DNA from: a virus
Taxonomy: Duplodnaviria; Caudoviricetes
Reading direction: 5' to 3' (one strand)
Length of the DNA: 64,000 nucleotides
IMG/VR virus record: IMGVR_UViG_3300026101_000001
Span: 19,407-83,406 of that record
The position numbers and the translations under genes were made by a program. The notes beneath the pieces are model-generated. The model was not told the origin of the DNA. It ran no database searches and saw nothing but the letters and a program-made list of their open reading frames with translations. Of this stretch, positions 8,168 to 62,479 are shown piece by piece (positions within the stretch are counted from its first letter, which is position 1; every line of letters begins with the position of its first letter).

Positions 8168-8172
8168 GTTGG

Positions 8173-9378: not shown

Positions 9379-9420
9379 CGTCAATCTCCAAATTTTTATT
9401 TGTGGTGCGAATCTTCCGAA

Positions 9421-9813
9421 TTAACGGAAGATTACAGATACCAAGTTGTTAGTGGTATCAACGGCGGTAACAACCACGTTGCGACCTAGACCAGCTCCGG
9501 CAGCTTTTACTTTACCGTCACCGTTTGATACTACGTGGCCACCCACTGTCGGAGCTGTACCCGCGTATTCAAACTCGGCACACATATGCCATGACACAGC
9601 ACCCATTTTTACGCCTTCAACTTCACGGTTTTCATAAGACTCTAGGTAACCTAGAATCTCATCATCTGCAGCACCAAAGCCCACCGTAAAATCTCCGGTT
9701 ACCGAAACCGGTTTACCAACGTCCGCAAAACCCGTGATTGATGCATCTAGATAGAATGATGCTGCCGCGGATTCAGTGCGGATACCCTTATGTTGTAAAT
9801 CGCCAATTTGCAT
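9421..9813 (-). CDS. Capsid decoration/cement protein
   Basis: 130 aa Gly/Val-rich beta protein between protease and capsid. Confidence 0.65.
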   Translation of the reverse strand: MQIGDLQHKGIRTESAAASFYLDASITGFADVGKPVSVTGDFTVGFGAADDEILGYLESYENREVEGVKMGAVSWHMCAEFEYAGTAPTVGGHVVSNGDGKVKAAGAGLGRNVVVTAVDTTNNLVSVIFR

Positions 9814-9824
9814 GACTCTTCCCC

Positions 9825-10991
9825 TTATCGATTAGAAACAAACGCACTGTTATGCGCGGCAGTAAGCACCAGAACGTCGTCAGCTCCCGGTGTATCCGCA
9901 CCTTTGCCAACACCACCCCTTGGGATTGCTGCCAGTTTAATTTGAGCTTGTTTTAACAGCTCAATTTTCTCGTCAGCGCTGGCGTCTTCAGCCAACGTCA
10001 AACCCGCTGCAACCGCAGCCAGTTTTAGTTGTTCATCGAACACGCCGACAATTTTGTTCGCCGTTTCAAGTTGCGCTTGAGCGGCTGAAAGATCAGATTG
10101 AAGTTTGGTCTCAGAACCATTTTCAATCTTCGTATTTAGTTCTTCTACTTGTCCTTTCAGCGCGGCAACTTCCGACTGAGAAGCGGTAAGCGCTGCCTCT
10201 GCCGATTCGAGTTTAACTTCTAGCTTGCCGTTAGCTGCGGACAACGTAGAAACTTGGTTTGTTAATGCTGATAAATCCATAGTTTCACCTGTTGTTTCAC
10301 TTTGAGTTGGGGAGCAAGTCATATAACTGTACTGTACGGCTTCAGGAGAACTTGAAGCGGCAAGCTGGTTATATGCGTCTTTGCCCAGACGTTGCTTGGC
10401 AGAGCCAAGTATCTTCGGTTTATTACTCGCGCCTTTGTTCACGAGTGATAATTCTTTCCAAGCACGGAGGTCGGTTAAGCGAAGGTGGGTTCCGTTCTCA
10501 CCGATTCGATGACCGTTATCACATTCACGAAACCAGAAACTCATTTCGTTGCCTTCGGCCATGTAGTCGAAACCACATTCAGAACAGTACGCGTGATTGG
10601 GAGCTGCCCCGACAGAAACCTCATCTAGAATAGAAAGGTCAATATCTCTGGCGTAAGGGCCTTCAGCATCGACATAGAAAAGAACGTTTAAGTCCATGTG
10701 CCCTTCATCGGCGCTATAGGTATCTGCGGCAAACACCTTACCTACAGGGAGCATCTGGCCATTGTGCATGACCTGAATAGGGACACTTTCTTCTTTGTAA
10801 TACGCCGCCATCTGTGACAGAAAGCCTTCTGTCATTTGTGCGCCATGATAGGCTGTGCTTGGTTGATTGATTGGACGAGTAGATGCCGCAACGCTCTCAT
10901 ACGCTGCAATCTGCGAAAAGTCTATTTCATCACCAGCGGCTGCGGTGATAAGCGATTTGATACGCTCAGTGAGGGTTAGCCGTTTAGCCAT
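9825..10991 (-). CDS. Prohead protease / scaffold
   Basis: 'QVMHNGQMLPVGKV', 'DEVSVG', 'ELSLVNKGA' protease-like motifs plus C-terminal coiled-coil. Confidence 0.7.
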   Translation of the reverse strand: MAKRLTLTERIKSLITAAAGDEIDFSQIAAYESVAASTRPINQPSTAYHGAQMTEGFLSQMAAYYKEESVPIQVMHNGQMLPVGKVFAADTYSADEGHMDLNVLFYVDAEGPYARDIDLSILDEVSVGAAPNHAYCSECGFDYMAEGNEMSFWFRECDNGHRIGENGTHLRLTDLRAWKELSLVNKGASNKPKILGSAKQRLGKDAYNQLAASSSPEAVQYSYMTCSPTQSETTGETMDLSALTNQVSTLSAANGKLEVKLESAEAALTASQSEVAALKGQVEELNTKIENGSETKLQSDLSAAQAQLETANKIVGVFDEQLKLAAVAAGLTLAEDASADEKIELLKQAQIKLAAIPRGGVGKGADTPGADDVLVLTAAHNSAFVSNR

Positions 10992-11066
10992 CGTCAATTT
11001 CCATCCAAATTTTCGATTATCTTAGGGCTTTTCAATCGCGTTGCCAAGCCCGATTAAAAATTAACC

Positions 11067-12527
11067 TTAAGACTGGTTAGCGTTAGACTTCGCACTTTTG
11101 TCTGAAGCGCGACTAACAGAACGTCCTTGCGGGTCAGAATTAGGGCTTACTTTTTCTGCTTCTACTTCCATAGCGCCGCCAATAAACCCCGTTCCACTTA
11201 GCTCAGCTACCGAGTCCGGTCTAATGCGACGGTACATGGCAATATGGTAATCATCGTCGGTTATCAACCCATCACTTAGGTCGGTTCGCAAGCGGTTTGA
11301 CTTCAAGTTCAATTGGGCCTCTAGCTCAAGCTCCGAACGCAAATCAATATTAGGGAATCTGACAATAACTCGACTCTCGGAGCCTTGCATACGTAAAGCC
11401 ATCGTAAGCATGCTGCCTAGGATTTCTCCGATAGGCTCATTCAAACTATCGGCAGCTTTGGCAAACAAGTTCGCTTCAACCGTCGCGGTATTTACACCCG
11501 ATTCACCCCGACCAAGTACCGTGGCCATCGTCTTTAACCCTGCTTGGTTTTGGGCGTTAAGCGTATCAATCACTTCCTGAATTTTAATACCTGTTGCGGG
11601 GTTCTTTTCATTAAGCATTGAAACTTCAGCACTGTCGGTGTGAACCATCGCTTGGTCTGGACGCAACGAAGCAAACGCGCTTCCAATATCTTGGCGGCGT
11701 TGAGAAATATAGGTTCTTAGTTTTTGCGGGTCTACTTTAACGTCAGCCGGAGCATTTTTCACCAAGACTTCTTCAAGTACCTTGATAGCGATTCGCGGGA
11801 ACCCTGTAACTTGCATGATTCGATACAAGTCATTAATCACCTGTTGCCTTGCTGCCATGGTATTAATTGCACTAACGAAGGGGCTATGGCCGTAAGCTTC
11901 AATAGGTGATTTTCGGTACCAAGCTACGAAGAAAGAAGGGATATCCATTTTAATTGGGTCCCCGCCCCCTTGGTCTTGCCATGGCACCATTTTCCCAGGC
12001 TCTTTTTCTTGCCATCGAATACTGGCCATATCGATATTGCGAAGCTCAGTTAATTGAAGTTGATCCCCAAATACCGTTTCACAGCCTATACCACCTCGGG
12101 CTAATAGCATGTAGCGGAATTCTTCTGATAGTTCTCGCAGAGTCTTAGGTCTTAAGTAACCTTTAGAGTAGTCGCGGCGGGTCTCTAAGGCTTCAATAAG
12201 TTCATTAACTATCTTGGCACCATCGCGGTCAATCGCCCCGTCGGGGTCTTTTACAACGATATAAGGGATAGAGCTCCCCGCCGTAGTTAGATATGCGCCT
12301 AATGCCGCTGAGGCATCAGGGTCGGACTTAACAAGCTTCATAATGAGAGTTTGTGAGTTATCCGAAACTCGACTTGAATAGATATCTTCTAGGTGTTCCC
12401 GATAATCTGGGAGCGATAGGACTTCTGTGTTGTTCTCTGCGTTATAGGTCGCAGTTTGTGTACTCCCTTTCGGCTTAAACCGATTAGGCACAATTACCTT
12501 GAGCTTGCTAAGTATTGTTCCGGCCAT
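11067..12527 (-). CDS. Portal protein
   Basis: 486 aa directly after TerL; 'YRKSPIEAYGHSPFVSAINT' portal-like segment. Confidence 0.8.
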   Translation of the reverse strand: MAGTILSKLKVIVPNRFKPKGSTQTATYNAENNTEVLSLPDYREHLEDIYSSRVSDNSQTLIMKLVKSDPDASAALGAYLTTAGSSIPYIVVKDPDGAIDRDGAKIVNELIEALETRRDYSKGYLRPKTLRELSEEFRYMLLARGGIGCETVFGDQLQLTELRNIDMASIRWQEKEPGKMVPWQDQGGGDPIKMDIPSFFVAWYRKSPIEAYGHSPFVSAINTMAARQQVINDLYRIMQVTGFPRIAIKVLEEVLVKNAPADVKVDPQKLRTYISQRRQDIGSAFASLRPDQAMVHTDSAEVSMLNEKNPATGIKIQEVIDTLNAQNQAGLKTMATVLGRGESGVNTATVEANLFAKAADSLNEPIGEILGSMLTMALRMQGSESRVIVRFPNIDLRSELELEAQLNLKSNRLRTDLSDGLITDDDYHIAMYRRIRPDSVAELSGTGFIGGAMEVEAEKVSPNSDPQGRSVSRASDKSAKSNANQS

Positions 12528-12545
12528 CGTCAATTTCCCAAATTG

Positions 12546-14348
12546 TTAGTACCGACGAATTATTTTTGTCGGGTTATTGCTGGAAGAATAACCGATTAAG
12601 TCGGTTGTGCCAAAGATATCATTATCTTGTTGGCCTAGAAGGATACCTCCACCGTGGCCAGCGTTAGAGAAATCGGTATTCACATTCACCCAGCCCTCAA
12701 GACCGTCTTTTACAATCTTATACGAGACCCCTGCGGCGAGATAGGCCATTGCGTGGAAGAAGTGGTCTTTACCGGAAAGCTTAACCCAAACGGCTTGTTC
12801 CTCTTCGACTTCCTCTCTGATCATATCCTGAAGATGAGACTCTATTTTGTCTTGGTTACTGGTGTAACCTTCAATCGACCACGTTAAGTTTCTTACACCC
12901 GTGGCCACATGGTCTAGCATATCGGTACGGTTTACCTTGATATAGTCCACTTCCCCGAGTGCATTCTTCTCTTCAGCAACTTCCTTACTTTTCGTGTAGT
13001 GCACCGGCATAATTCGCCCGAGGCTACCGTTACGGATATCATTACTGGTAGGTGTATAAGGGTACCTATCCAAGCCTCCCCCAACAAAATGATATTGCTC
13101 ATCTAGCTTATTAACCAGCCCCCGTAATTGGTCTATATGGCAGTACGTGGCTAAAATAATCCGCATCTTTCTAGGGTCGGTACCACAACCTACAACGATG
13201 TAGCACGTTACCCCCATATCGATACCAATGAAGTGTGGTTCACCTTGTCTTGGCTCTGGGATAGCTGGGCTTCCCATGGCTAGTTTTATCTGGCTTAACG
13301 AAAGCTTCTGGTCTTCGTTGTTGTAGGACTCACCCTTAACCGTGTTGTAAAAGCCCTTCAGGTTATCATTCGATTTGTAATCAAATAACTGAGCGAAACA
13401 ATACTGAGGGTCTAGTCTGTGGGTAGAGAACGTGCGGATACGGTACCCGCGGTTGAGCACCCGACTCGGGTATTTAGCCACCCATTCACGGTTTTCGTAG
13501 TCAGCAAGGTTTAGGGGCTTCCGGCATTTTTCACAAACCACGCGTGCGGATTGAATATCGAGCTGGCCAGAGTCGATAAGGTTATCTGAGATATCTTCAA
13601 ATTTTTCCAAATCATCTGGTAGGCCATCGACTTCGACGAACGCTCGGCTAAATACGGGTATTTGGTAATGGTTGCAGCAACGGCACTTAATCACGTACTC
13701 ATGCTGGTCACTTCTTCGGTATCCTCTGTCTACACCTACCCCTTCATAAGTTGGGGTACTGAAACGCTGGTTAACACGGTGATCGGAACCTTGTAGACGA
13801 GAGTTAAAGAGTGACAACATTGACGGGTCTGTTAAGTCAATCTCATCGTTAAAAACAAAGTCCGCGTTGATACTCGTGGCGTCGGCCTCTGCAGAACCAG
13901 TGACGTAAAGGAAACTGGTACCAATCCGCATAAGGTCCATAGACTGTTTGGTCTTGTCCCCATTCTCTTGCCTGAAAGCTTTATCAAAATTAATCAACGG
14001 CTGGATACGCGCTTTTGAAATACGCTTAAACATCCGCTCATTCGGCATGGTGTAAATCAAAGAGGTGTTGGGCGTCCGGCTTAATATCGCCAGCGCTTTA
14101 CGAATCTGTATTTCGGTAAGACCAACCTGAGAGGGCTTTATACAATCGAGGCTGGGGTGCATATCATCGGCAATCTGTTTTTGGAAGGGATAGCGCTCGA
14201 AACTAAAAGGCCGCTTGTTGAGTGAAGTGTTGGCACACATCCAATCACCATGCGTCATATCTTTCGAATCTTTGTTGTACCGGCCTTCTGCAGTCGAGTA
14301 CAAATCCATTAAAAACTGATTAGCCACAGCTACCTCAATTATCGTCAA
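12546..14348 (-). CDS. terL: Terminase large subunit, lambda gpA-like (exact start uncertain)
   Basis: 'IKPSQVGLTE' Walker A variant, 'FNDEID' Walker B, CxxC..CxxC insert, 'IGIDMG' and 'DHFFHA' nuclease motifs. Confidence 0.9.
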   Translation of the reverse strand: MTIIEVAVANQFLMDLYSTAEGRYNKDSKDMTHGDWMCANTSLNKRPFSFERYPFQKQIADDMHPSLDCIKPSQVGLTEIQIRKALAILSRTPNTSLIYTMPNERMFKRISKARIQPLINFDKAFRQENGDKTKQSMDLMRIGTSFLYVTGSAEADATSINADFVFNDEIDLTDPSMLSLFNSRLQGSDHRVNQRFSTPTYEGVGVDRGYRRSDQHEYVIKCRCCNHYQIPVFSRAFVEVDGLPDDLEKFEDISDNLIDSGQLDIQSARVVCEKCRKPLNLADYENREWVAKYPSRVLNRGYRIRTFSTHRLDPQYCFAQLFDYKSNDNLKGFYNTVKGESYNNEDQKLSLSQIKLAMGSPAIPEPRQGEPHFIGIDMGVTCYIVVGCGTDPRKMRIILATYCHIDQLRGLVNKLDEQYHFVGGGLDRYPYTPTSNDIRNGSLGRIMPVHYTKSKEVAEEKNALGEVDYIKVNRTDMLDHVATGVRNLTWSIEGYTSNQDKIESHLQDMIREEVEEEQAVWVKLSGKDHFFHAMAYLAAGVSYKIVKDGLEGWVNVNTDFSNAGHGGGILLGQQDNDIFGTTDLIGYSSSNNPTKIIRRY

Positions 14349-17490: not shown

Positions 17491-17507
17491 TTTTTACGTT
17501 TCTTTGC

Positions 17508-17524
17508 ACACATTGACAATGTGT
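17508..17524. promoter_or_regulatory. Putative operator ACACA-N7-TGTGT, containing TTGACA
   Basis: CACACATTG-A-CAATGTGTG dyad. Confidence 0.55.
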
Positions 17525-17555
17525 GTAAGTGCTTTCAATTGATGAACTTTTCCAA

Positions 17556-17584
17556 CTACAAAAACACAATTTAATTGTGTCTTT
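17556..17584. promoter_or_regulatory. Putative operator ACACA-N7-TGTGT
   Basis: 27/29 identical to reverse complement of 36955-36983. Confidence 0.65.
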
Positions 17585-17861
17585 TATTTCAGAAATACGA
17601 CAACAAAAGCCCTCGTGATTTAACACTTATATAACAGAATATAAGGTTTGCCACCGGTTTACTTACTTGACCAATCGAGGAGATTTTTATACTTTAGTTG
17701 GCGTTGACAGCAAACAGCTTACATGCCTCAACCGCGGGAGCCCAGCGCTCCTTACAATTTGGAAATTGACGATAAAGCCTGTTCTAATCTTTGTGCCCGT
17801 CCGCATACCTAGTTTCAAGCTTATCCTACGAGCAACGACCTCTGATTACGTTGAACGTCTC

Positions 17862-17900: not shown

Positions 17901-17906
17901 GGCCTA

Positions 17907-17978
17907 GGTTCTCGGGTCGCAGTTCTCGGGTAAAGTTTCTAGTTTCTGGGGTGAAGGTTCTCGGGTCGCGGTTCTAGG
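17907..17978. repeat. Short direct repeats GGTTCTCGGGTCGC and variants
   Basis: Copies at 17907 and 17956, partial copy GTTCTCGGGT at 17922, further GTTCT/GTTTCT units. Confidence 0.75.
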
Positions 17979-18185
17979 TTTGAGGGTAGTATCTATAACC
18001 TTCCAAAATTCCAAAAATTTTTCAGGTGGAGTGAGAGGGCCACCCCACTATATCACCCCATTTTCTTGCATAAAATCCACCCCCCCTTATATAGTGAATG
18101 CAACTCGGGACACGTACCACTTAACACGGCTCGAGGGGGGGAACATTCCCCCACCAACAAATTAACTTTTAAGGAATTGACGATT

Positions 18186-20583: not shown

Positions 20584-20799
20584 TAAGAAGTATACTTTTA
20601 AAAACTTCGCTTTCGTTTTAATTCGTACCCAAGGATTATTTACAAGCGTTGTACGTGTTCCTCCTTGTGACTTGCTGCAAGTCGCAGTGATCTACCCAAC
20701 GACCTTTGCGTGACGAGCTGTGAGCTCTGCGTGATAAGAATTTGAATTCGCTTGTGGTGCTCACTGTCGCAACGTGCAACAAACCACCGTGGGAGTGAA

Positions 20800-20816
20800 T
20801 CACACCCAAATTGTGT
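20800..20816. promoter_or_regulatory. Putative operator (TCACA-N7-TGTGT)
   Basis: Right arm TTGTGTTTTT identical to the 36955 site; ~26 bp upstream of promoter -35. Confidence 0.5.
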
Positions 20817-20842
20817 TTTTGGTCGAAATAAGACCATTGCAA

Positions 20843-26782: not shown

Positions 26783-26804
26783 CTCTTAAATTTGGAAATT
26801 GACG

Positions 26805-27704
26805 ATGCAAATAAACGTAAACAGTTATTTTTGTGGTGCTGGCCTGATGGATATTGGGCTGATAAATGCGGGATTAACCATTAACCAGTCTTTTGAAATT
26901 GATAAAGACGCGGTTAAGACGTATCGCGAGAATATTGGCCACCATGTTCAACAGTGCGATTTGACTGAAGAGCTCGTGTTAAACCAAGAGGAATGTGATG
27001 CGATGGTCTTCACCTACCCTTGCACCAAGTATTCCACGATAGGCGATATTCACGGTGTAAGAACGGGTGACGATTTATTCCTTCATGCTTTGCGTCACTT
27101 GGCCATTCGCAAGCCCGATGCTTACGTGGTGGAAAATGTGCCAGGAATGAGAGCGTTTCCGCTGGTAATGGAAGCTATGACAAAGTTGCCGGATTACTAC
27201 GTTCACGTTTTTTGTCCGGTCCAATCTCAGCATTGGTTACCCCAGCGAAGAGATCGTCTGATTATTTTTGGTACCCGCCGACCTTTTGAAGTTCGCCCCC
27301 CGAAGAGTTGTCGTCCTGTGACGCTGGCTGAAATTGTCGAGCATGACCCAGAAGTAACCTTGCCCAGCGCTATTAAAGCGCGAATGTCGGGTAAGTACCG
27401 TGACCTCCCAATAATCAGCGACCCCAGCAAAGGAGATATAGCGCCGACTTGTGTTGCTCACTACGCCAAGGATAAATCGACGCGCTTGGTTGCTGACAAG
27501 CGATTCCCAATGGGTGTTCGTCCTTACTCAGTGCGTGAGTATGCGAGGCTGCAGGGTGTACCAGACTGGTTTACGTTCCCTGTCTCGGCTACGTCGGCAT
27601 ATCGCCAGATTGGTAATGGTGTGTCAGTGCCGAAAGGTGAATGGGCAGGCGGCGAGTTGTTCCGCTATTTTCAACAAAGTAAAAAATTAGACAAGGTGGC
27701 TTAA
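26805..27704 (+). CDS. DNA cytosine-5 methyltransferase (orphan)
   Basis: 'YFCGAG', 'TYPC', 'VENVPG', 'QRRDRL', 'RLQG', 'YRQIGNGV'. Confidence 0.95.
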   Translation: MQINVNSYFCGAGLMDIGLINAGLTINQSFEIDKDAVKTYRENIGHHVQQCDLTEELVLNQEECDAMVFTYPCTKYSTIGDIHGVRTGDDLFLHALRHLAIRKPDAYVVENVPGMRAFPLVMEAMTKLPDYYVHVFCPVQSQHWLPQRRDRLIIFGTRRPFEVRPPKSCRPVTLAEIVEHDPEVTLPSAIKARMSGKYRDLPIISDPSKGDIAPTCVAHYAKDKSTRLVADKRFPMGVRPYSVREYARLQGVPDWFTFPVSATSAYRQIGNGVSVPKGEWAGGELFRYFQQSKKLDKVA

Positions 27705-29036: not shown

Positions 29037-30188
29037 ATGATGGATAAAATTGAATATAAACTCCTGGCCTCTCGAGGCGTGAAAGGTTCAAGACCTTTTT
29101 ACCAAGTACTTATCCCTTTGCGCCAGCTAAGTTCTCTTTTGAAACTAGACGATCACTGGGATATTACTAAGCGTAGTCAACGTTTAGTGAATGTCCCGCG
29201 TGCTAAGAAGTTCGCAAAGTATTTAATCGAGAACCACAAGAACGATACGATGTTTGTCGTTCCACCTTTAGTGGGCTCGTTGGAGGGGGACTTTGACTTC
29301 GTTGAAGTGCAAATGGACCAGTATCGAAATATCGGCCATTTGCGTGTGGACCTCGATGCTCAAATGCTTTTGTTTGATGGCCAGCACCGAGCAAAAGGGG
29401 TTCAGCTTGCTTTGCAAGAGTATCCGATGCTTCAAAACAGCCAAGTTTCGATTATGCTTTTTCCGATGCTGGATTTATCTGAAAGACAACAGGCATTCCA
29501 TGATATTAATTCGATGCAAAAGGTACCGGTTGATTCAATCCGCATTGCATACAACAACGCCGACCCGATAGCTTCGACATTGATGGATACTGTACAAGCT
29601 TCGGATATTCGTGCGGTGGTTGAGTATGAGAAGAACAGTTGTACCGGTGACTCAGATAAATTCTGGGCACTAAAACAGCTCAATGAGTTTGCCAAGCTAT
29701 TTTGTGGTAAAGACAACTCACCAGAGCGCATGGCGGAATATTTAAAAGTCTTCTTAGACAAGATGTTTATCACTCAAAAACTAAGGCAGTTGTATACGTC
29801 TCACCCTCACGTTTGTAAGGAATATATACACCCGTCGGCGCAGTTCACGAGACAATTTTACATTCTTCCTTTCACAGTGACACTTAAGGCATTGGCCATG
29901 CTCTTTAGAAAAGCGGAAGAACTTGAAATTGGGCCTGAAGTGCTAAGTAACTTCTTAGAAGAAAGTAGCCCCAATAACGAGAAAAACTGGAACTACTTCG
30001 ATAAAGACAATGGGAAATGGGAACATCGTTGTGTATCCCATGACTACAAAATGAAAAGTAACGCCGTTGCGGTAAGAATGACCTACTATCAAATGGCAAA
30101 AGACGCGGGTATTGAGTTGTCGGAAGAAGAAATCGCGGAAGAAGAAAAAGTCCTGGCTGAAGCAAAAGCGATTGCTGCAGCCGTTTAA
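29037..30188 (+). CDS. DGQHR-domain / DndB-like protein
   Basis: 'SQRLVNVPRAKKFAKYL', 'LLFDGQHRAKG', 'QQAFHDIN'. Confidence 0.85.
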   Translation: MMDKIEYKLLASRGVKGSRPFYQVLIPLRQLSSLLKLDDHWDITKRSQRLVNVPRAKKFAKYLIENHKNDTMFVVPPLVGSLEGDFDFVEVQMDQYRNIGHLRVDLDAQMLLFDGQHRAKGVQLALQEYPMLQNSQVSIMLFPMLDLSERQQAFHDINSMQKVPVDSIRIAYNNADPIASTLMDTVQASDIRAVVEYEKNSCTGDSDKFWALKQLNEFAKLFCGKDNSPERMAEYLKVFLDKMFITQKLRQLYTSHPHVCKEYIHPSAQFTRQFYILPFTVTLKALAMLFRKAEELEIGPEVLSNFLEESSPNNEKNWNYFDKDNGKWEHRCVSHDYKMKSNAVAVRMTYYQMAKDAGIELSEEEIAEEEKVLAEAKAIAAAV

Positions 30189-30245
30189 CCTGGGGGGAAT
30201 GTTCTCCCCCTTCAATTAACTTTTACAATTTGGAAATTGACGATT

Positions 30246-31631
30246 ATGACTAATCAAACTGTTGCTACAAAACACGAAGATATCGAACGCGCTACTTACT
30301 CCCCTGAAGATAACAAGCTTCGTATTTATCCTATCAATCGCCTAGATACAGACCTTTACAACGAGCTTAAGGAACTGGGCTTTGGTTGGGCGCCAAAACA
30401 AGAACTCTTCGTAAAACCTTCATGGTCCCCTGAAGCGGAAGACTTATGTATTCGCTTGGCCGGCACGATTGAACCTGAAGACACGACGATGGCCGAGCGT
30501 GCCGAAGCGAAGGCTGAGCGGTTAAAAGCGCTTGCTGAAAAGCGTGCTGACCAAGCGCGAGGTTTTAGTGCTGCGGCGAACAATATGCAATTTGGTGATC
30601 AACCTATCCTTTTAGGCCACCACAGCCAGCGTAAAATGCAGAAAGCGCAAGAAGCTCAAGAGCGTAACGAAGAACGCGCCAAAGAAGCCAGCTCAGCGGT
30701 CCGCTATTGGAACTGGCGCATGATGGGTACTATTGCTCATGCCAACCACAAAAATCGCCCTGACGTTATTTATAGACGTATTAAAACGTTACTCACGGAC
30801 TTGCGAAAGCAACAACGCTATTTGCACGCTGCAGGGGATTGCTTATCTCTTTGGGAACGCTGCAAAGGTATGGAGGATGCCGAGAAGCAAAAAGAGTTTG
30901 CTTTGATGATTGCGAATTACCGTTGGGATATCTGCATTTCAGATAGTTACCGCGACATTAAGGAAGATAAGAAACCTTTATCGGAAATTATCGACGCCAA
31001 TATTGAGCTAGGTACCAAGCGTAAGAACGACCAGAACTTACACCGCAAGATAAACCATATCTTGAACCGTCTTACTTACGAACGGGCTCAGTTGGGGGAA
31101 GTTGAATATTTTACCGGTAAGCTTACCGCCCCTGTATTGCAAACGTTCCTTAGAACGCATGGCGCGGATAAACCTAAAGCGACCAAATCTGACGTTGGTT
31201 GGATTGCGGAGTGTGACAACGACTTACCTATCCACATTGGTACAGGTTCGACACTGGAACTGGAAGAATTGGAATGGCGCGACCTGATGTATGAGGTGGG
31301 CTATGAAGTGCCGGTTCCTAAGCCGAAGGCTCCCCCGATTGTTAACCTGTCACCGGAAGAAGTAAAAAGCGTAACGGTGAAAATGTGGAGCAGCGCGAAC
31401 AAGTACCCTATCGTCTCAATGACGAAAGCGGAGTATTCAGCAACCCATAGTGAGCAGCGGGGCGTTAAGCCGAGTACCTGTGGTCAGTTCAGAGTAAAAG
31501 TTTGTCGAATTGTTCCTGAGGGCCAGGATTTTTGGAAAGGCGAATGGGCTGTGGTTTACCTAACGGACTCAAAGACGCACGCCGCTCCGAATTCAACGGC
31601 TCTTGAGTATGTGGAAGTGGAGACAGCCTAA
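30246..31631 (+). CDS. DUF3560-like protein
   Basis: 'MAERAEAKAERLKALAEKR', 'QPILLGHHSQRK', 'RRIKTLLTDLRK'; adjacent to MTase as usual for this family. Confidence 0.75.
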   Translation: MTNQTVATKHEDIERATYSPEDNKLRIYPINRLDTDLYNELKELGFGWAPKQELFVKPSWSPEAEDLCIRLAGTIEPEDTTMAERAEAKAERLKALAEKRADQARGFSAAANNMQFGDQPILLGHHSQRKMQKAQEAQERNEERAKEASSAVRYWNWRMMGTIAHANHKNRPDVIYRRIKTLLTDLRKQQRYLHAAGDCLSLWERCKGMEDAEKQKEFALMIANYRWDICISDSYRDIKEDKKPLSEIIDANIELGTKRKNDQNLHRKINHILNRLTYERAQLGEVEYFTGKLTAPVLQTFLRTHGADKPKATKSDVGWIAECDNDLPIHIGTGSTLELEELEWRDLMYEVGYEVPVPKPKAPPIVNLSPEEVKSVTVKMWSSANKYPIVSMTKAEYSATHSEQRGVKPSTCGQFRVKVCRIVPEGQDFWKGEWAVVYLTDSKTHAAPNSTALEYVEVETA

Positions 31632-32248
31632 TGGATTCATCAGTGTATGTAAGACCCAATAAACCCAAGCATGTTAAGGCACCGGAAAAAGTAGAACTCG
31701 AGCCTATCGAGTTCTCCGAGGCCCCAAAGCCTGTCGTTGTTCATGCCTCAACGGAATGCCACGTTACGCCCTATGATGTGGCGGAGCGTATGGTCGAGCT
31801 GTTGGAGTTGGAACCCGAAGATCACGTTCTAGAACCTTCGGGTGGTACCGGTAATTTGGTTAAGGCGGTACAAAACACCGGCCACTCAGCGGATCTTATT
31901 ACTATTGTCGAGCGTGAATACTCGTTGGTTGAAGCTTTGTTACAGCGTTTTTGTAGTGCCGATTGCGAGGGGGCTATCCCCTTGGTGCATCACGAAGACT
32001 TCCTTAGCTGGGCCGAGGCTCGTTACAACGCGGGGTATCGTTATGAAAAGATCATAATGAACCCCCCGTTCAAACAGGTAAAAAAGCATATGGAGGCCGC
32101 ACGCAAGTTACTCCGCTTCACAGGGGTACTTGTTGCTGTGGTACCAACGTCGTTCGACCACCCCAGTTACGAGGAAGTCGAGACGTTACCCAGCGACACG
32201 TTTAGCACCTGTAAGGTGTTCACGAAAATCGTGCGGTATGAGGGTTAG
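31631..32248 (+). CDS. Small amino (N6A/N4C)-type methyltransferase
   Basis: 'VLEPSGGTGNL' and 'IMNPPF'. Confidence 0.85.
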   Translation: MDSSVYVRPNKPKHVKAPEKVELEPIEFSEAPKPVVVHASTECHVTPYDVAERMVELLELEPEDHVLEPSGGTGNLVKAVQNTGHSADLITIVEREYSLVEALLQRFCSADCEGAIPLVHHEDFLSWAEARYNAGYRYEKIIMNPPFKQVKKHMEAARKLLRFTGVLVAVVPTSFDHPSYEEVETLPSDTFSTCKVFTKIVRYEG

Positions 32249-32250
32249 CC

Positions 32251-32442
32251 ATGGCTATTTTAAAAGTTGAGTGGCGGTATGTGTATAAGGCCAAAGGTAA
32301 AGTAGACCCCAACCTAGACCGGAAGCTAACAGCTCAAGTATTACCAATGATATCTAAGGCCCTAGAAGATAATCAAACCGAAGGGTTTCTGGATGCGGTA
32401 TCTGAAGGAGACAAACTGAAAGGCCATTGGATGTTGGTCTAA
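32251..32442 (+). CDS. Hypothetical protein
   Basis: Operon position. Confidence 0.55.
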   Translation: MAILKVEWRYVYKAKGKVDPNLDRKLTAQVLPMISKALEDNQTEGFLDAVSEGDKLKGHWMLV

Positions 32443-32492
32443 CTACAGGGGGGAATGTTCCCCCCTTTTAATTAACTTGTTGGAAATTGACG

Positions 32493-33524
32493 ATGCAAAC
32501 GAAACTAGTATTACAAGATGATACGTACTTCCATGCGCCAAGTGTGGACTTAGATAGCTACGATCACATTATCGTATGCCACTCTATGGGGAAAGATAGC
32601 TGGGCCGCATTACTTCATATCCTGGCGGAGGGTGCAGACCGAAAGAAAATAGAAATTTGGCACCATGAAGTAGATGGCCGTGAAGGTTCTAACCTAATGG
32701 ATTGGGCGTTTATTTCAGACTATGCAAAGAAAGCCTGTACCTCGATGGGACTACCACTCTACTTTAGTTGGCTACAAGGGGGGTTTGAAGGTGAAATGCT
32801 TAAAGAGAACACTATCAGTCAACCGATACTTACTCAAACGCCGGATGGCCTGTTGCTACTAGAGAGGGATACTAACCGCTCTAAGCCCGCTACCCGTTTA
32901 AGGTTCCCCCAGCAGTCCGCGAGTCTCCAAACAAGATGGTGTAGCTCAGCACTGAAAATTGACGTAGCCCGACGCGCTTTAAATAACCAAGACAGGTTTA
33001 AGGGTAAACGCACGTTAATGATAACTGGGGAACGTCGTGAAGAGTCGAGTAACCGAGCTAAATACAATCAGCTAGAGCCCCATGCTTGTGATACTCGTTA
33101 TGGTCGAACAGCTCGGCACGTTGATGCTTGGCGTCCCGTTCTTGAGTGGTCAGAACAAAAAGTCTGGGACACATTAAAGCAAGCGGGTGTAGTTGCACCT
33201 GTCCCCTATCGCTTAGGCTGGAACCGTTCAAGCTGCCAAGCGTGTATTTATAATCACGGGAGTATATGGGCCACCATGAAGAAATACTTTCGTGAGCGTT
33301 TTGAAAAGGTGTTGAATTACGAAAAGCAATTCAACACAACCATTAGCCGTAGCAAGAAAAATATTGATGAGTTAGCGGCGCTCAACAAACCGTTAGAAAT
33401 ATCGGACTCGGCAGCGCTGGCCCAAGCCCAGCAATCCGAATATGTTTTACCTATATTCTGCCACCCTGACGACTGGGAAATGCCTGTAGGTGCATTCCGC
33501 TCTGAAGGTTGCGGTAGTGTTTAA
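32493..33524 (+). CDS. PAPS-reductase-family (PP-loop) protein
   Basis: 'HSMGKDS' PP-loop, 'RWCSSALK', 'TGERREES..RA', 'RLGWNRSSCQACI'. Confidence 0.85.
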   Translation: MQTKLVLQDDTYFHAPSVDLDSYDHIIVCHSMGKDSWAALLHILAEGADRKKIEIWHHEVDGREGSNLMDWAFISDYAKKACTSMGLPLYFSWLQGGFEGEMLKENTISQPILTQTPDGLLLLERDTNRSKPATRLRFPQQSASLQTRWCSSALKIDVARRALNNQDRFKGKRTLMITGERREESSNRAKYNQLEPHACDTRYGRTARHVDAWRPVLEWSEQKVWDTLKQAGVVAPVPYRLGWNRSSCQACIYNHGSIWATMKKYFRERFEKVLNYEKQFNTTISRSKKNIDELAALNKPLEISDSAALAQAQQSEYVLPIFCHPDDWEMPVGAFRSEGCGSV

Positions 33525-35442: not shown

Positions 35443-35473
35443 CGAAATGTTGCCGCAGTTAGGCAACATTTCG
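35443..35473. terminator. 12-bp hairpin ending the accessory operon
   Basis: CGAAATGTTGCC-N7-GGCAACATTTCG, extended by GTGATAT/ATATCAC. Confidence 0.6.
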
Positions 35474-35588
35474 CCTCTTATATCACTCCTTATGGCTTGA
35501 AACGGTCTAAAACTCTTAGACTTTCGTTTAGGCACATGCTTTGCAATTAACTCCATAGAAACAACCAAACCTCTTATGGAGAAACACA

Positions 35589-35741
35589 ATGAAAAAATTA
35601 GGATTCGCAATCGCGCTAGTACTTGGTATGGGTTCAACAATGGCTATGGCTGATGTTGGTAGTAATGTTGTTGTCCCAAAACCAGCGGACAACCCTAAAA
35701 CCGAATCACTCAAGCCTAAAAAGCCTACGGTTGGTTTTTAA
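35589..35741 (+). CDS. 50-aa secreted peptide precursor (not in ORF track)
   Basis: GGAG RBS; MKKLGFAIALVLGMGSTMAMA|DVGSNVVVPKPADNPKTESLKPKKPTVGF; n/h/c regions with A-X-A cleavage site. Confidence 0.75.
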   Translation: MKKLGFAIALVLGMGSTMAMADVGSNVVVPKPADNPKTESLKPKKPTVGF

Positions 35742-35752
35742 GTCTAGAAATT

Positions 35753-35777
35753 AAAAGAGCGGCTAAGCCGCTCTTTT
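35753..35777. terminator. Bidirectional terminator between convergent peptide and membrane genes
   Basis: AAAAGAGCGGC-TAA-GCCGCTCTTTT. Confidence 0.8.
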
Positions 35778-36521
35778 AAATAGTACTTCCAATTTTCTAG
35801 GTATGGACCCTGCGAGGTCCTTGACGTAGAACTCTTGAATACTCGCGTGGAACAACAACATAAGCAACATAATAGTCTGGGTAATAAAGACGATATTAAA
35901 CAGGAAATAGAAGCTAGGTAAGTGTAGCGCGTACTCAATATCAACGAGACGATAACCATAAAGTAGTGGGCCTGTCTCATGAATACCAAAATGTATCGTG
36001 AATATGTGGTAGTAAACCGCAATAGCAAAACAGATAAACCAGCACAACTTATACACCATACATAACCATGTACCTAGGTTTGTGTCTTCAGTTTTATCCA
36101 GCAATTTGAATCCAGCTTCTCTAAATCTTTCAGACCTAATAAGTTGGTTCGCTACCCAAAACTGGAACTTAACCCGATACTGGTACATCACCATGGTTAG
36201 AATACCTGGCACATAAATCATGGCAATAGCGGTATGGAGTGTAGGACTTAGCGTAAACATTAGGCTGGCAATCGCCTGTTCAGAGATTGAAGCAATTATG
36301 ATCAAAGCCAAAACGATACGATTATTGAAACCCTTAACCATTACGCCAGCTAAGATAACGCATGAAAACATCACCGCGTAGTAGCTGAGCATATCGGACA
36401 GTGAGTTTAGTTGCCATTTCCCTTCCACAAGGAAGTTGTTTAAAACAGCCGTAAAGATAAGTAGGGCCGTAACGAAAAGCGCGAACCGTAAGCCGTAGGT
36501 TTTAAAGAAGTGACGGTACAT
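35763..36521 (-). CDS. Polytopic inner-membrane protein (~6 TM)
   Basis: About six hydrophobic segments; starts 4 nt after the XRE gene stop. Confidence 0.8.
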   Translation of the reverse strand: MYRHFFKTYGLRFALFVTALLIFTAVLNNFLVEGKWQLNSLSDMLSYYAVMFSCVILAGVMVKGFNNRIVLALIIIASISEQAIASLMFTLSPTLHTAIAMIYVPGILTMVMYQYRVKFQFWVANQLIRSERFREAGFKLLDKTEDTNLGTWLCMVYKLCWFICFAIAVYYHIFTIHFGIHETGPLLYGYRLVDIEYALHLPSFYFLFNIVFITQTIMLLMLLFHASIQEFYVKDLAGSIPRKLEVLFKRAA

Positions 36522-36525
36522 AAAA

Positions 36526-36846
36526 TTACTCCCAAAACGTCGCTAAGAATCTTTTAAAATCCGAGAATGGGATATCCGATAAGGTAATTTTACTCACTAC
36601 CGCACCGAGTCCCTTCTTCATGTGAGCGCGTTTTGCAATTTGTTGGTATTTGTAGAATTCTTCTGTGGAAATTTTGCCGTATCGCTCGGCATTTGAAATA
36701 GTATTCTTGTGAACGTCCGCAGCAATAGCGAGTTCTTCTTGCGTCAATCGATAATTCTGGCGCATGTTTTTAAACTTTCGAGCTATTCGCCTACGACGCT
36801 CTAGCTCCCAGGGTGGTTCTATATTATCGTCAATTTTCTTAGACAC
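36526..36846 (-). CDS. XRE-family HTH regulator, putative prophage repressor
   Basis: 'MRQNYRLTQEELAIAADVHKNTISNAER'; divergent from replication operon; no S24 peptidase domain. Confidence 0.8.
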   Translation of the reverse strand: MSKKIDDNIEPPWELERRRRIARKFKNMRQNYRLTQEELAIAADVHKNTISNAERYGKISTEEFYKYQQIAKRAHMKKGLGAVVSKITLSDIPFSDFKRFLATFWE

Positions 36847-36954
36847 GGCTGTACTCCATCAAGGCCATACTGTAAATCTTTTACTACAAAACAAAACGAA
36901 CAAATTCTAACCAATTAAATAAATTAAAGAAAGCAGAATTTTTTAATAAATATT

Positions 36955-36983
36955 AAAAACACAAATAAATTGTGTTTTTGTAG
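36955..36983. promoter_or_regulatory. Putative operator AAAAACACAA-N5-TTGTGTTTTT
   Basis: Perfect 10-bp arms in AT-rich divergent intergenic region. Confidence 0.7.
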
Positions 36984-37001
36984 CCGGACTTCGTTTTTAA
37001 C

Positions 37002-37030
37002 TTGATATACAAAAGTTGAAAGCGTAGTTT
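37002..37030 (+). promoter_or_regulatory. Possible sigma70 promoter for replication operon
   Basis: TTGATA-17-TAGTTT. Confidence 0.4.
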
Positions 37031-37075
37031 TAACTTTGCCTACGGGCTTAACTTTAAAATTTGGAAATTGACGAT

Positions 37076-62197: not shown

Positions 62198-62230
62198 TAA
62201 GCTAACTTTTAAAATTTGGAAATTGACGAT

Positions 62231-62479
62231 ATGACGAACTCAGCTAATGATAACTATCCTGTTGCTATTAATGTGACTACTAGCCTAAGAACCGTACCAC
62301 TCACTAAATATTGTGAACTGTCTGGTGAAGACATAGAAACGGTACGACAGAGAATTAAACGCGGACACTGGGTAAAAGGCGTACATGCTATTAAGCCACC
62401 CCATATTCGCGAACTTTGGATTGACTTAGAAGCGGTAGAACAATGGATAAGAAATGGGGGCAGCTCCCTCGCGGGGTAA
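62231..62479 (+). CDS. xis: Excisionase (winged-helix Xis)
   Basis: 'VPLTKYCELSGEDIETVRQRIKRGHW...LWIDLEAVEQW', overlapping int start. Confidence 0.85.
   Translation: MTNSANDNYPVAINVTTSLRTVPLTKYCELSGEDIETVRQRIKRGHWVKGVHAIKPPHIRELWIDLEAVEQWIRNGGSSLAG

What the first reader, a model, noticed from the sequence alone, without database searches (positions are those of the whole stretch)
35589..36983. Candidate peptide-signalling lysis/lysogeny switch: secreted 50-aa peptide, 6-TM membrane protein and XRE repressor
Seen: an ORF below the 60-aa cut-off (35589-35741, GGAG RBS) encodes a Sec signal peptide (MKK/LGFAIALVLGMGS/TMAMA) and a 29-aa Pro/Lys-rich mature peptide DVGSNVVVPKPADNPKTESLKPKKPTVGF. 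It converges, at a shared bidirectional terminator, on a two-gene operon: an XRE HTH protein followed 4 nt later by a ~6-TM protein. That operon is divergent from the replication operon across a dyad operator. The HTH lacks an S24 autocleavage domain. Known: arbitrium (AimP/AimR/AimX) is a secreted-peptide phage decision system in Bacillus phages, and CI repressors normally need the S24 domain for RecA/SOS induction. Inference: this Gram-negative phage may export a peptide, sense it with its own membrane receptor and control the repressor that way. The alternative is a cI-rexAB-like exclusion/immunity module.
Basis: partly seen in the sequence, partly recalled or inferred. Interest (0 to 1): 0.88.

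Follow-up and report, generated by a model that had tools for sequence, protein, structure and literature searches.

The report
Phage repressor with peptide–membrane-protein cassette
A temperate marine phage carries, next to its repressor gene, an inseparable pair of unknown genes (a six-helix membrane protein and a small exported peptide with its own sigma-54 promoter); the pair is real, but a sister phage keeps the repressor without it, so it is an add-on to the dormancy switch, not its core.

Summary
Observation confirmed. The 50-aa ORF (35589-35741) is a real gene: pairwise dN/dS is about 0.03 in the comparisons with dS above 0.6 (range 0.02-0.30). It keeps an n-h-AXA signal peptide in five lineages. 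It converges on an XRE-HTH/6-TM operon at a bidirectional terminator. The genome is an 83-kb temperate phage with an integrase and no S24 peptidase; the host is probably Alteromonas.

New results:
1. HTH, membrane protein and peptide occur together in 12 distinct loci from 5 lineages (membrane protein down to 26% identity), although the gene upstream of the peptide varies.
2. Every peptide gene has a sigma-54 -24/-12 element (GGCA[CT]-N5-TTGC) 39-46 nt before its start. No phage enhancer-binding protein was found in the five genomes searched, so expression probably depends on a host activator.
3. One sister lineage (L045) keeps the HTH (69% identical) but lacks membrane protein, peptide and sigma-54 element. 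The pair is therefore a dispensable unit and the repressor works without it.
4. Neither protein matches any known family or fold.

The architecture copies B. subtilis sdpC / sdpR-sdpI (convergent peptide gene, repressor plus 6-TM operon), without sequence similarity.

Verdict: a repressor-linked accessory envelope cassette, most likely cI-rex-like exclusion tuned by the peptide (0.38). Sdp-like peptide control of the repressor stays open (about 0.2). The complex predictor was closed.

The parts
35443..35473 (+). 12-bp inverted repeat (CGAAATGTTGCC-N7-GGCAACATTTCG), 83-113 nt upstream of the predicted sigma-54 start. It is either the terminator or processing hairpin of the upstream operon, or an activator (UAS) site. 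Unresolved.
   Evidence: The stem is kept and the loop varies in close relatives. Three further lineages (L021, L022, L023) have a TTGCC(G)...(C)GGCAA repeat at a similar distance but with different spacing. No T run follows it. My regex found no other copy of this hairpin type in the window.
35531..35544 (+). Sigma-54 type -24/-12 promoter element, GGCAC-N5-TTGC (GG-N10-GC). Predicted start near 35556.
   Evidence: One of only two exact matches in 64 kb (0.41 expected). The same element lies 39-46 nt before the start codon in 12 of 12 peptide-bearing loci. Its 5-nt spacer and its flanks vary, and the flanks cannot be aligned in L022, L023 and L047. It is absent from the locus that lacks the peptide.
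35551..35581 (+). Hairpin CTCCATA...TATGGAG that pairs with the Shine-Dalgarno sequence of the peptide gene.
   Evidence: Folds. L021 has a compensatory change (CTCCAA/TTGGAG), and L038 and L041 have G-U-preserving changes. The hairpin is absent in L022 and L023. Inference: a transcript starting at about 35556 would lack the 5' arm, so only read-through RNA would be masked.
35589..35741 (+). Gene for a 50-aa pre-peptide: a Sec-type signal peptide (residues 1-21, cut after AMA) and a 29-aa Pro/Lys-rich mature peptide. K42-P43-K44 is invariant in all five lineages. P46 is invariant in the nine aligned sequences but is replaced in the 41-aa peptides of L047 and L049. The last 11 residues are invariant in the close group.
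   Evidence: A 175-nt metatranscriptome contig covers 35573-35747.
35751..35779 (.). Bidirectional intrinsic terminator shared by the peptide gene and the HTH/membrane-protein operon. The last codons of the membrane-protein gene lie in its stem.
   Evidence: Its position is kept, with different GC-rich stems, in all lineages.
35763..36521 (-). 252-aa inner-membrane protein with six predicted helices, N-in/C-in. It belongs to an orphan family. The invariant motifs face the cytoplasm: GFNN (64-67), E145-x-T-N148 and E230-x-Y-x-KDL-x-G-x-x-P241.
   Evidence: No hit in Pfam, PHROGs, PADLOC, NCBIfam or PDB sequences. Model pLDDT is 69 and fold matches are only generic helical bundles.
36526..36846 (-). 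106-aa XRE-type HTH protein (HTH at about residues 20-66) with a 40-aa C-terminal extension and no S24 domain. It is the candidate lysogeny repressor. Its last codons (TGG GAG TAA) supply the SD for the membrane-protein gene.
   Evidence: HTH_3 scores 22.8 bits against a cut-off of 23; phrog_7950 is annotated as a repressor. The PDB profile hits C.BclI and HipB over residues 12-66. Identity between lineages is 48-69%, and the helix H-x-NT-[IV]-SN-x-ER is invariant. Apart from the structural block at 1-14348, no ORF of 90 aa or more on the minus strand lies outside a larger plus-strand ORF, so this operon looks like the only leftward one.
36955..36979 (.). Perfect dyad AAAAACACAA-N5-TTGTGTTTTT between the divergent HTH and ligase operons. 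Candidate operator.
   Evidence: Near-copies lie at 17563-17581 and 20799-20817. The CACAA-N5-TTGTG core is kept in L021 and L022 but not in L023 or L045, although the HTH recognition helix is the same there. Assigning this dyad to this HTH is therefore uncertain.
17563..17581 (.). Second copy of the dyad (1 mismatch), in the intergenic region ahead of the long rightward accessory-gene operon that ends at the peptide gene.
37002..37030 (+). Candidate sigma-70 promoter of the ligase/replication operon (TTGATA-N17-TAGTTT), about 20 bp to the right of the dyad.
   Evidence: My own reading. The block CTTGA...GCGTAGTTT is kept across lineages. The consensus scanner did not call it, so this is a weak assignment.

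Best explanation
**Shown.**
- The window is part of an 83-kb temperate phage with a tyrosine integrase at its right end. Relatives are proviruses or free genomes.
- The host is probably Alteromonas. That is an inference from GC content, Shine-Dalgarno use and ligase similarity.
- HTH, 6-TM protein and exported peptide form a conserved block.
- The 6-TM protein and the peptide are inherited, and lost, as one unit. The HTH persists without them.

**Inferred.**
- The HTH is the phage repressor and does not need the other two genes.
- The 6-TM protein is translated from the repressor mRNA, so it is present in lysogens.
- The peptide gene is silent unless a host enhancer-binding protein activates its sigma-54 promoter.
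- The pre-peptide is then exported by Sec and cut by signal peptidase. This leaves a 22-29-aa periplasmic peptide.
- Its conserved KPK-containing end docks on the periplasmic face of the 6-TM protein.

**Most likely role.** This is a lysogen-expressed envelope function laid out like lambda cI-rexAB. The membrane protein excludes or aborts superinfecting phage, and the peptide tunes it under a host condition read through sigma-54. The cassette is an accessory to the lysis/lysogeny switch, not its core.
For: - **Temperate phage.** Integrase; relatives classed as proviruses.
- **Repressor role of the HTH.** It heads what appears to be the only leftward operon outside the structural block. It has an XRE fold. 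A dyad lies in the divergent control region, with a second copy ahead of the other rightward operon.
- **Pair inherited as a unit.** Both genes are present in 12 loci from 5 lineages, although the gene upstream of the peptide differs (114, 146, 262, 279, 282, 288 or 294 aa). Both are absent in L045/L046. The HTH of L045 nests in the window's clade with 99/98 support. No locus has only one of the two.
- **Purifying selection on all three genes**.
- **Sigma-54 element** in 12 of 12 peptide-bearing loci. No phage enhancer-binding protein in the five genomes searched.
- **Distinct start signals.** The three genes lack the AATTTGGAAATTGACGA start motif that precedes 16 other phage genes, which fits separate regulation.
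- **Presence in RNA libraries.** Contigs from four marine metatranscriptome studies cover the operon and the peptide gene.
- **General knowledge.** Membrane proteins co-transcribed with prophage repressors are commonly exclusion or defence factors (lambda rexAB, for example).
Against: - No exclusion or defence family matches either protein (PADLOC, PHROGs, Pfam).
- The best-conserved parts of the 6-TM protein face the cytoplasm, not the periplasm where incoming phage DNA or the peptide would act. This fits a cytoplasmic partner such as the HTH at least as well.
- Tight coupling to the HTH gene (2-6 nt apart in all lineages) fits a physical complex equally well.
- Peptide-to-membrane-protein contact is inferred only from co-inheritance.
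- The sigma-54 assignment rests on sequence alone, and no activator site has been identified.
- The dyad-to-HTH link is weakened by L045 and L023.
- RNA contigs cannot give strand, transcript ends or expression level, and DNA carry-over is possible.
Confidence: 0.38

Rival explanations
1. Sdp-like three-protein signalling applied to a prophage. The exported peptide is a ligand for the 6-TM protein. The liganded membrane protein sequesters or releases the S24-less repressor at the membrane. This gives RecA-independent control of induction or lysogenisation, gated by a host sigma-54 activator.
For: - The gene layout matches B. subtilis sdpC / sdpR-sdpI: a secreted-peptide gene convergent with a repressor plus 6-TM operon, where SdpI sequesters SdpR when SdpC binds (PMC2910880).
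- The invariant motifs of the 6-TM protein are cytoplasmic, and the HTH is the most conserved of the three proteins. The peptide and the periplasmic loops are the most diverged between lineages.
- Within the close group, the last 11 peptide residues are invariant and periplasmic loop 3 is 92% conserved.
- The genome has no S24 domain, so another induction route is needed.
- One charge swap coincides: peptide E39K with membrane-protein K35Q/E. This is a single event.
Against: - The L045 lineage keeps the HTH, including its C-terminal tail, without the membrane protein or the peptide. The tail therefore has a function of its own, and the switch works without the pair.
- There is no similarity to the SdpI or ArsR families.
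- With only five lineages, co-variation cannot be separated from shared descent.
- No binding test was possible.
- Routing a cytoplasmic decision through the periplasm is roundabout.
Confidence: 0.2
2. Toxin-antitoxin or abortive-infection pair. The HTH is a HipB-like DNA-binding antitoxin. The 6-TM protein is a membrane-damaging toxin held in check by the antitoxin's C-terminal tail. The peptide modulates it or is unrelated.
For: - The best NCBIfam and PDB matches of the HTH include HipB, Y4mF and MqsA antitoxins.
- The antitoxin-then-toxin gene order with a 4-nt gap is typical of type II modules.
- The cytoplasmic motifs of the membrane protein are conserved.
Against: - These matches cover only the generic XRE fold, at weak scores far below family cut-offs.
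- The HTH survives alone in L045 with its tail intact.
- The HTH sits exactly where a phage repressor is expected.
- I know of no type II toxin that is a 6-TM protein.
Confidence: 0.1
3. Peptide toxin plus immunity protein. Lysogens export a harmful peptide under sigma-54 control, and the constitutively made 6-TM protein protects the producer. This resembles bacteriocin or Sdp immunity.
For: - The two genes are strictly co-inherited and lost together.
- The immunity-like gene would be expressed with the repressor.
- Sec-dependent peptide toxins with polytopic immunity proteins exist (SdpC/SdpI; PMC2910880).
Against: - The mature peptide is hydrophilic, and its net charge flips between lineages: about +3 in the window and about -4 in L021. 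That is unlike membrane-active toxins.
- Sec export in a Gram-negative host leaves it in the periplasm, with no export route across the outer membrane in the locus.
- There are no maturation genes nearby.
Confidence: 0.1
4. The peptide gene is an independent moron (a lysogenic-conversion gene) that merely lies next to the repressor operon. The 6-TM protein acts alone.
For: - The peptide gene has its own promoter and terminator, is on the opposite strand, and borders a variable accessory-gene region.
Against: - It is kept in all 12 loci across 5 lineages while its upstream neighbours change.
- It disappears only together with the 6-TM gene. Independent cargo would be expected to come and go on its own.
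Confidence: 0.12

Closest known systems
SdpC / SdpR-SdpI cannibalism-immunity signalling of Bacillus subtilis
   Same: A gene for a secreted peptide converges on a two-gene operon that encodes a small HTH autorepressor followed by a 6-TM protein. In Sdp, the membrane protein binds the peptide outside and sequesters the repressor inside (PMC2910880).
   Different: There is no sequence relationship: the 6-TM protein has no SdpI Pfam hit, and the regulator is XRE, not ArsR. The peptide is short, hydrophilic and needs no SdpAB. The host is Gram-negative, so the peptide ends in the periplasm. The regulator sits at a phage immunity locus. The peptide has a sigma-54 promoter. The repressor can exist without the pair (L045).
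Lambda immunity region cI-rexA-rexB (and other repressor-linked exclusion genes)
   Same: The repressor gene is followed in the same operon by a polytopic membrane protein made in lysogens. The operon is transcribed divergently from the lytic genes. The cassette is dispensable for repression.
   Different: The HTH has no S24 domain. There is no similarity to RexA or RexB (no PHROG or Pfam hit). An obligatory exported-peptide partner with its own sigma-54 promoter has no counterpart in lambda.
Arbitrium (AimP-AimR-AimX) and other RRNPP peptide systems of Firmicutes phages
   Same: A short pre-peptide with a signal peptide, encoded beside a phage regulator. The C-terminal end of the peptide is the conserved or specific part.
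   Different: There is no TPR-type cytoplasmic receptor. The candidate receptor is a membrane protein. There is no evidence of re-import. The host is Gram-negative. RRNPP systems are described for Gram-positive Firmicutes and their elements (PMC10075063).
Sigma-54 (RpoN) dependent promoters
   Same: GG-N10-GC with TTGC at -12, at a fixed distance from the gene, with only the defining bases invariant.
   Different: It lies in a phage genome that encodes no enhancer-binding protein. The activator and its binding site are unknown. I found no described case of a phage peptide gene under sigma-54 control in the searches I ran. These were limited searches.

Membership tests
XRE / Cro-CI type HTH regulators | Five-helix HTH_3-type DNA-binding domain | tested here: met
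   HTH_3 scores 22.8 bits, just under the cut-off of 23 (23.9 with its neighbours in the frame). The family profile hits PDB C.BclI and HipB at E 9e-7 to 8e-4 over residues 12-66.
LexA/CI-type SOS-cleavable repressors | C-terminal Peptidase_S24 autocleavage domain | tested here: not met
   The protein is 106 aa. PF00717 has no match anywhere in the 83-kb genome, while the control genomes were positive.
Arbitrium (AimR/AimP) | Intracellular TPR receptor with an N-terminal HTH that binds the mature peptide | tested here: not met
   The only adjacent regulator is a 106-aa HTH with a 40-aa tail. There is no TPR hit.
Arbitrium (AimR/AimP) | Short secreted pro-peptide gene beside the receptor | tested here: met
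   A 41-50-aa ORF with a signal peptide in 12 loci. Processing to a short mature peptide was not tested.
SdpC/SdpI/SdpR pathway | Membrane protein belongs to the SdpI family | tested here: not met
   No Pfam family at E up to 0.1 for four divergent members. The fold search was uninformative.
SdpC/SdpI/SdpR pathway | Operon of repressor then 6-TM protein, convergent with the secreted-peptide gene | tested here: met
   for the window. for other lineages. The layout of sdp is taken from PMC2910880.
SdpC/SdpI/SdpR pathway | Ligand-dependent sequestration of the repressor by the membrane protein | not testable with these tools
This needs two-hybrid, pull-down or localisation experiments.
Lambda cI-rexAB type immunity/exclusion operon | Homology to RexA or RexB, or to a known exclusion protein | tested here: not met
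   No PHROG, PADLOC or Pfam hit for the 6-TM protein or the peptide.
Lambda cI-rexAB type immunity/exclusion operon | Exclusion of superinfecting phage by the lysogen | not testable with these tools
   This needs plating assays on lysogens with and without the cassette.
Sigma-54 dependent promoter | GG at -24 and GC at -12, separated by 10 nt, within TGGCAC-N5-TTGCW | tested here: met
   aGGCACatgctTTGCa at 35530-35545. 12 of 12 loci keep GGCA[CT]-N5-TTGC 39-46 nt before the start codon while the spacer varies.
Sigma-54 dependent promoter | A cognate enhancer-binding protein and its upstream site | tested here: inconclusive
   No PF00158 protein in five phage genomes. The host genome is not in hand. 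Candidate sites (the inverted repeat at 35443-35473; a FleQ-like box only in L047 and L049) are unproven.
Sec / signal peptidase I substrates | Basic n-region, hydrophobic h-region, small-x-small cleavage motif, and no lipobox Cys | tested here: met
   MKK + 12-16 hydrophobic residues + AMA, ALA, SLA, AVA/AQA or AFA in five lineages, with no Cys at +1. This was judged by inspection, because no predictor was available.
Type II toxin-antitoxin (HipB-like antitoxin) | Cognate toxin of a known family downstream | tested here: not met
   The downstream gene has no family match. The antitoxin models hit at 20-25 bits against cut-offs of 62-79.

The most novel reading that the evidence does not exclude
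A Gram-negative marine phage lineage controls its S24-less repressor through an Sdp-like relay. A host sigma-54 activator switches on a phage peptide. The peptide is exported to the periplasm and binds a phage-encoded 6-TM receptor. The receptor's conserved cytoplasmic face then captures or releases the repressor. This would be an SOS-independent, peptide-mediated input to induction or lysogenisation. If the peptide escapes the cell, it could also act between cells.
Probability: 0.2. Interest if true: 0.9.

Novelty: new variant of a known kind. Interest (0 to 1): 0.62.

Why it matters
Peptide-based control of phage dormancy is known only from Gram-positive hosts, where the receptors are cytoplasmic. 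This cassette is compact and gives a clear experimental handle on how a prophage without an SOS-cleavable repressor couples to host physiology. It pairs an orphan 6-TM protein made with the repressor and an exported peptide under a host sigma-54 activator. Nature has also supplied a knock-out: the L045-type phage lacks both genes. Whether the cassette turns out to be exclusion or signalling, it would define two new protein families. To my knowledge it would also be an undescribed use of sigma-54 by a phage. The phage sequence appears in marine metagenomes or metatranscriptomes of 13 studies, so it is not a rarity.

Tried and rejected
- **First structure model** (6 close sequences) had pLDDT 45 and was unusable.
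- **Second structure model** (9 sequences) had pLDDT 69 and pTM 0.61. Foldseek against PDB gave nothing below E 0.5. VIA-align gave only generic helical bundles, with Z up to 8.8, which is within background for helical proteins.
- **ESM Atlas** best score was 0.84, below the level the tool calls meaningful.
- **Family libraries.** Pfam, PHROGs, PADLOC and NCBIfam gave no hit for the 6-TM protein or the peptide. PDB sequence search found none.
- **Phage GenBank tblastn** found none.
- **GTDB species genomes.** No relative was found, so the host could not be named that way.
- **Extra scans.** Viral and metagenome scans with the profile added no new diversity.
- **Host from provirus ends.** No tRNA was found, and the ends were not clearly host DNA.
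- **Shared tail motif.** Earlier scan notes describe repressors whose C-terminal tail is copied at the N-terminus of the downstream membrane protein. Here the HTH tail ([FY]K-x-F[LI]..[FL]W) and the membrane-protein start (HF[FL]K..LRF) share only basic-aromatic character. No convincing shared or co-varying motif.
- **Metalloprotease idea** for the His/Glu cluster at 172-182. These histidines are not conserved between lineages.
- **o-Spanin or entericidin-type lipoprotein.** There is no lipobox Cys.
- **The hairpin at 35443-35473 as a member of a dispersed hairpin family.** My regex found no other copy of that type.
- **RNA contigs.** Depth was higher over the HTH/membrane-protein operon than over the ligase gene in two runs. 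Contig ends from three studies fall at 36869-36897, and nothing covers 36898-36946. Contigs cannot rank genes or prove transcript ends, so this is only a weak hint of a leftward start there.
- **Literature searches** for sigma-54 in prophage switches found nothing relevant.
Full report
**1. Context**

The window is bases 19407-83406 of an 83,406-bp IMG/VR virus record that CheckV rates as complete.
- It encodes terminase, portal and major head protein on the minus strand at the left.
- From about 14.4 kb to the right end there is an almost unbroken plus-strand array: primase, accessory genes, ligase, helicases, DNA polymerase and SbcC-like genes.
- The array ends in a tyrosine integrase at 62443-63681, which has an Arm-DNA-binding domain.
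- Four close relatives in IMG/VR are two genomes with direct terminal repeats and two proviruses. The phage is therefore temperate.
- The only named records are 'Tenacibaculum sp. KUL113/KUL118'. Those assemblies are 7.6-7.9 Mb at 39% GC, in a study where clean Alteromonas genomes are 4.5 Mb at 44% GC (PMC10112130). I read them as mixed cultures.
- Local GC is 39-50%, the genes use clear Shine-Dalgarno sites, and the ligase is 70% identical in DNA to Alteromonas phage AD45. This points to Alteromonas as host. That is an inference.

**2.

Coordinates, RBS, terminator, 4-nt gene spacing, dyad and the lack of S24 are all as described.

The small ORF is a real gene. In relatives whose membrane protein is 75-96% identical, the peptide DNA has accumulated mostly synonymous changes. 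Between WIN and L013 there are 24 synonymous and 6 non-synonymous differences. Pairwise dN/dS is 0.02-0.06 once dS exceeds 0.6, and 0.02-0.30 over all pairs. This is as strong as for the HTH and the membrane protein.

**3. How far the triad reaches**

The membrane-protein family is tiny.
- A word-based search of 5.8 billion proteins found 7 clusters, six of them full-length and at least 75% identical.
- A full HMMER profile search of 1.84 billion representatives added three distant members at 29-39% identity.
- A profile search with the HTH found a fifth lineage at 26-27% identity.

In every one of these 12 distinct loci the layout is the same: ligase operon, then the divergent HTH and membrane-protein genes 2-6 nt apart, then a bidirectional terminator, then a convergent ORF of 41-50 aa with a signal peptide.

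The gene upstream of the peptide differs between loci (114, 146, 262, 279, 282, 288 or 294 aa). The peptide therefore belongs to the immunity side, not to the variable cargo.

Mature peptides are not alignable between lineages except for a hydrophobic-x-KPK motif near the C-terminus. K42, P43 and K44 are invariant in all five lineages. P46 is invariant in the nine aligned sequences but not in L047 or L049. Within the close group the last 11 residues never change, while seven earlier mature-peptide positions do.

**4. A natural knock-out**

The HTH profile search also found a lineage from Tara Oceans and other samples (5 contigs, up to 75 kb).
- Its HTH is 69% identical to the window's.
- The HTH gene is followed directly by the convergent phrog_6186-like gene that lies upstream of the peptide in the window.
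- Within the 6.3-kb and 3.6-kb stretches held for L045 and L046 there is no membrane protein, no peptide and no sigma-54 element.
- In an HTH tree this lineage sits inside the window's clade with 99/98 support. Both major clades contain triad-bearing members, so one joint loss is the simplest history. The tree is midpoint-rooted and the branches are long, so this is parsimony, not proof.

The tally is both genes in 12 loci, neither in one lineage, and only one of them in none.

Consequences:
- The two genes are a functional unit.
- The HTH does not need them.
- The HTH's C-terminal tail has a role of its own, because L045 keeps it.

**5. The peptide has its own sigma-54 promoter**

The sequence aGGCACatgctTTGCa lies at 35530-45, 44 nt before the ATG. 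It matches the -24/-12 consensus TGGCAC-N5-TTGCW (from my own knowledge of the RpoN consensus).
- GGCA[CT]-N5-TTGC is present 39-46 nt upstream of the start codon in all 12 loci. The 5-nt spacer varies, and the flanks cannot be aligned in L022, L023 and L047.
- The exact pattern occurs twice in 64 kb, against 0.41 expected.
- Sigma-54 holoenzyme needs an ATP-dependent enhancer-binding protein. None is encoded in the five phage genomes searched. Expression would therefore depend on a host activator, that is, on a host physiological signal.
- The activator is unknown.
- A 12-bp inverted repeat lies 83-113 nt upstream of the predicted start, where such sites usually lie. It could equally be the terminator of the upstream operon.
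- Lineage 5 carries a 13/14 match to the Pseudomonas FleQ box at -81. The consensus string is as printed in PMC8125075 and PMC6120874. The other lineages do not have it.
- In the window's group and in L021, a hairpin pairs with the peptide's Shine-Dalgarno sequence, with one compensatory and two wobble changes. A sigma-54 transcript starting near 35556 would lack the 5' arm. Read-through RNA from the early operon would then be masked and the sigma-54 transcript translatable. That is an inference.

**6. The membrane protein**

- It has six hydrophobic segments. Basic residues place the N-terminus, the 63-67 loop, the 114-150 loop and the C-terminus inside the cell.
- The invariant residues across lineages cluster on that inside face: GFNN at 64-67, E145-x-T-N148 and E230-x-Y-x-KDL-x-G-x-x-P241.
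- Periplasmic loops 1 and 2 are the least conserved parts, at 13-14% mean identity between lineages.
- Nothing in Pfam, PHROGs, PADLOC, NCBIfam or PDB matches it.
- The better AlphaFold model (pLDDT 69) finds only generic helical bundles.

**7. The HTH**

- It is an XRE fold with weak similarity to controller proteins and HipB. It also has 40 unmatched C-terminal residues.
- Apart from the structural block at 1-14348, every other minus-strand ORF of 90 aa or more lies inside a larger plus-strand ORF. This makes the HTH operon the apparent only leftward one.
- A perfect dyad lies in the divergent control region. Near-copies lie ahead of the other long rightward operon at 17563 and at 20799.
- This pattern is what a lysogeny repressor would show.
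- The dyad core is present in L021 and L022 but absent in L023 and L045, although the recognition helix is identical there. I therefore treat 'dyad = operator of this HTH' as likely, not shown.

**8. Expression**

Logan contigs from four marine metatranscriptome studies cover the HTH/membrane-protein operon and the peptide gene. One 175-nt contig spans just 35573-35747. These are contigs, so strand, transcript ends and level cannot be read, and DNA carry-over is possible. This is weak support for transcription and nothing more.

**9. Weighing the mechanisms**

Co-inheritance and joint loss make a functional pair of peptide and membrane protein likely. I put that at about 0.7.

What the pair does is open.
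- Prior knowledge favours a lysogen-expressed exclusion or defence function for a membrane protein transcribed with a repressor, in the lambda cI-rex manner. The dispensability shown by L045 fits an accessory role.
- Against that, the conserved face of the protein is cytoplasmic and the gene is tightly coupled to the HTH. This fits a physical complex between the membrane protein and the HTH.
- The gene layout is the same as B. subtilis sdpC / sdpR-sdpI. There a secreted peptide makes a 6-TM protein sequester the repressor (PMC2910880).

I give the exclusion-type reading 0.38 and the Sdp-like regulatory reading 0.2. Smaller shares go to a toxin-antitoxin pair, a toxin-immunity pair and an unrelated moron.

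Arbitrium is not the right comparison, because its defining TPR receptor is absent.

**10. Novelty**

- Two orphan families.
- A phage gene under sigma-54 control.
- An Sdp-like layout at a prophage immunity locus of a Gram-negative host.

I found none of these described in the limited literature searches I ran.

I did not test whether the two are related. It suggests the architecture may recur more widely.

Noticed in passing
window, 16 sites including 17756-17772, 26789-26805, 30227-30243, 37058-37074 and 62213-62229: The 17-mer AATTTGGAAATTGACGA (up to 2 mismatches) occurs 16 times, against 0.06 expected. It is always co-oriented with the genes. Where I checked (ligase), it lies directly before the ATG. 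It is also kept before the ligase gene in distant lineages. It looks like a phage-specific start or leader signal. The HTH, membrane-protein and peptide genes lack it.
   Followed up: partly
window 17904-17987: Iteron-like array of GGTTCTCGGGT-type units (4 overlapping copies) in the long non-coding stretch between the primase gene and the accessory operon. Possible replication origin.
   Followed up: no
window 17507-17525 and 20799-17: Further CACA/TGTG palindromes: CACACATTG-A-CAATGTGTG, which encloses TTGACA, and a 2-mismatch copy of the operator-like dyad at 20799-20817. They may belong to the same regulon as the dyad at 36955-36979.
   Followed up: partly
L047 and L049, 81 to 68 nt upstream of the predicted sigma-54 start of the peptide gene: GTCAATTAATTGAC (L047) and GTCAATTTCTTGAC (L049) match the Pseudomonas FleQ box GTCaNTAAATTGAC at 13 of 14 positions. 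FleQ is a sigma-54 activator. The window's lineage has no such box.
   Followed up: partly
L045 3001-3420 (Tara Oceans contig) and L046: Natural variant of the phage in which the HTH gene converges directly on the phrog_6186-like gene. Membrane protein, peptide, sigma-54 element and the CACAA dyad are all missing. The HTH's final Trp codon, which doubles as the membrane-protein SD, is changed.
   Followed up: yes
window peptide residue 39 and membrane-protein residue 35: Peptide E39 goes with K35 in periplasmic loop 1 (window, L010, L011). Peptide K39 goes with Q or E at that place (L012, L013, L038, L039, L041). This is a possible charge swap, but probably a single evolutionary event.
   Followed up: partly
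NCBI assemblies named Tenacibaculum sp. KUL113 and KUL118 (proteins P0003, P0005): These 'Tenacibaculum' assemblies are 7.6-7.9 Mb at about 39% GC. That is roughly an Alteromonas genome plus a Tenacibaculum genome, so the host label of the prophage is probably wrong.
   Followed up: partly
window 36869-36950: RNA-library contigs from three studies stop at 36869-36897, and the next contigs resume at 36950-37056. This would fit divergent transcript starts on either side of the AT-rich control region. Contigs cannot prove ends.
   Followed up: partly
G004 (IMGVR_UViG_2895548450_000001) 79.4-90.8 kb: This provirus record has three tyrosine-recombinase genes at one end, where the others have one. 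It may be a tandem or neighbouring integrated element.
   Followed up: no
window 29037-33524: A PAPS-reductase-family gene (phrog_424) lies in the window. DndB, DNA methylase and DUF3560 genes lie in the accessory operon upstream of the peptide in related loci.
   Followed up: no
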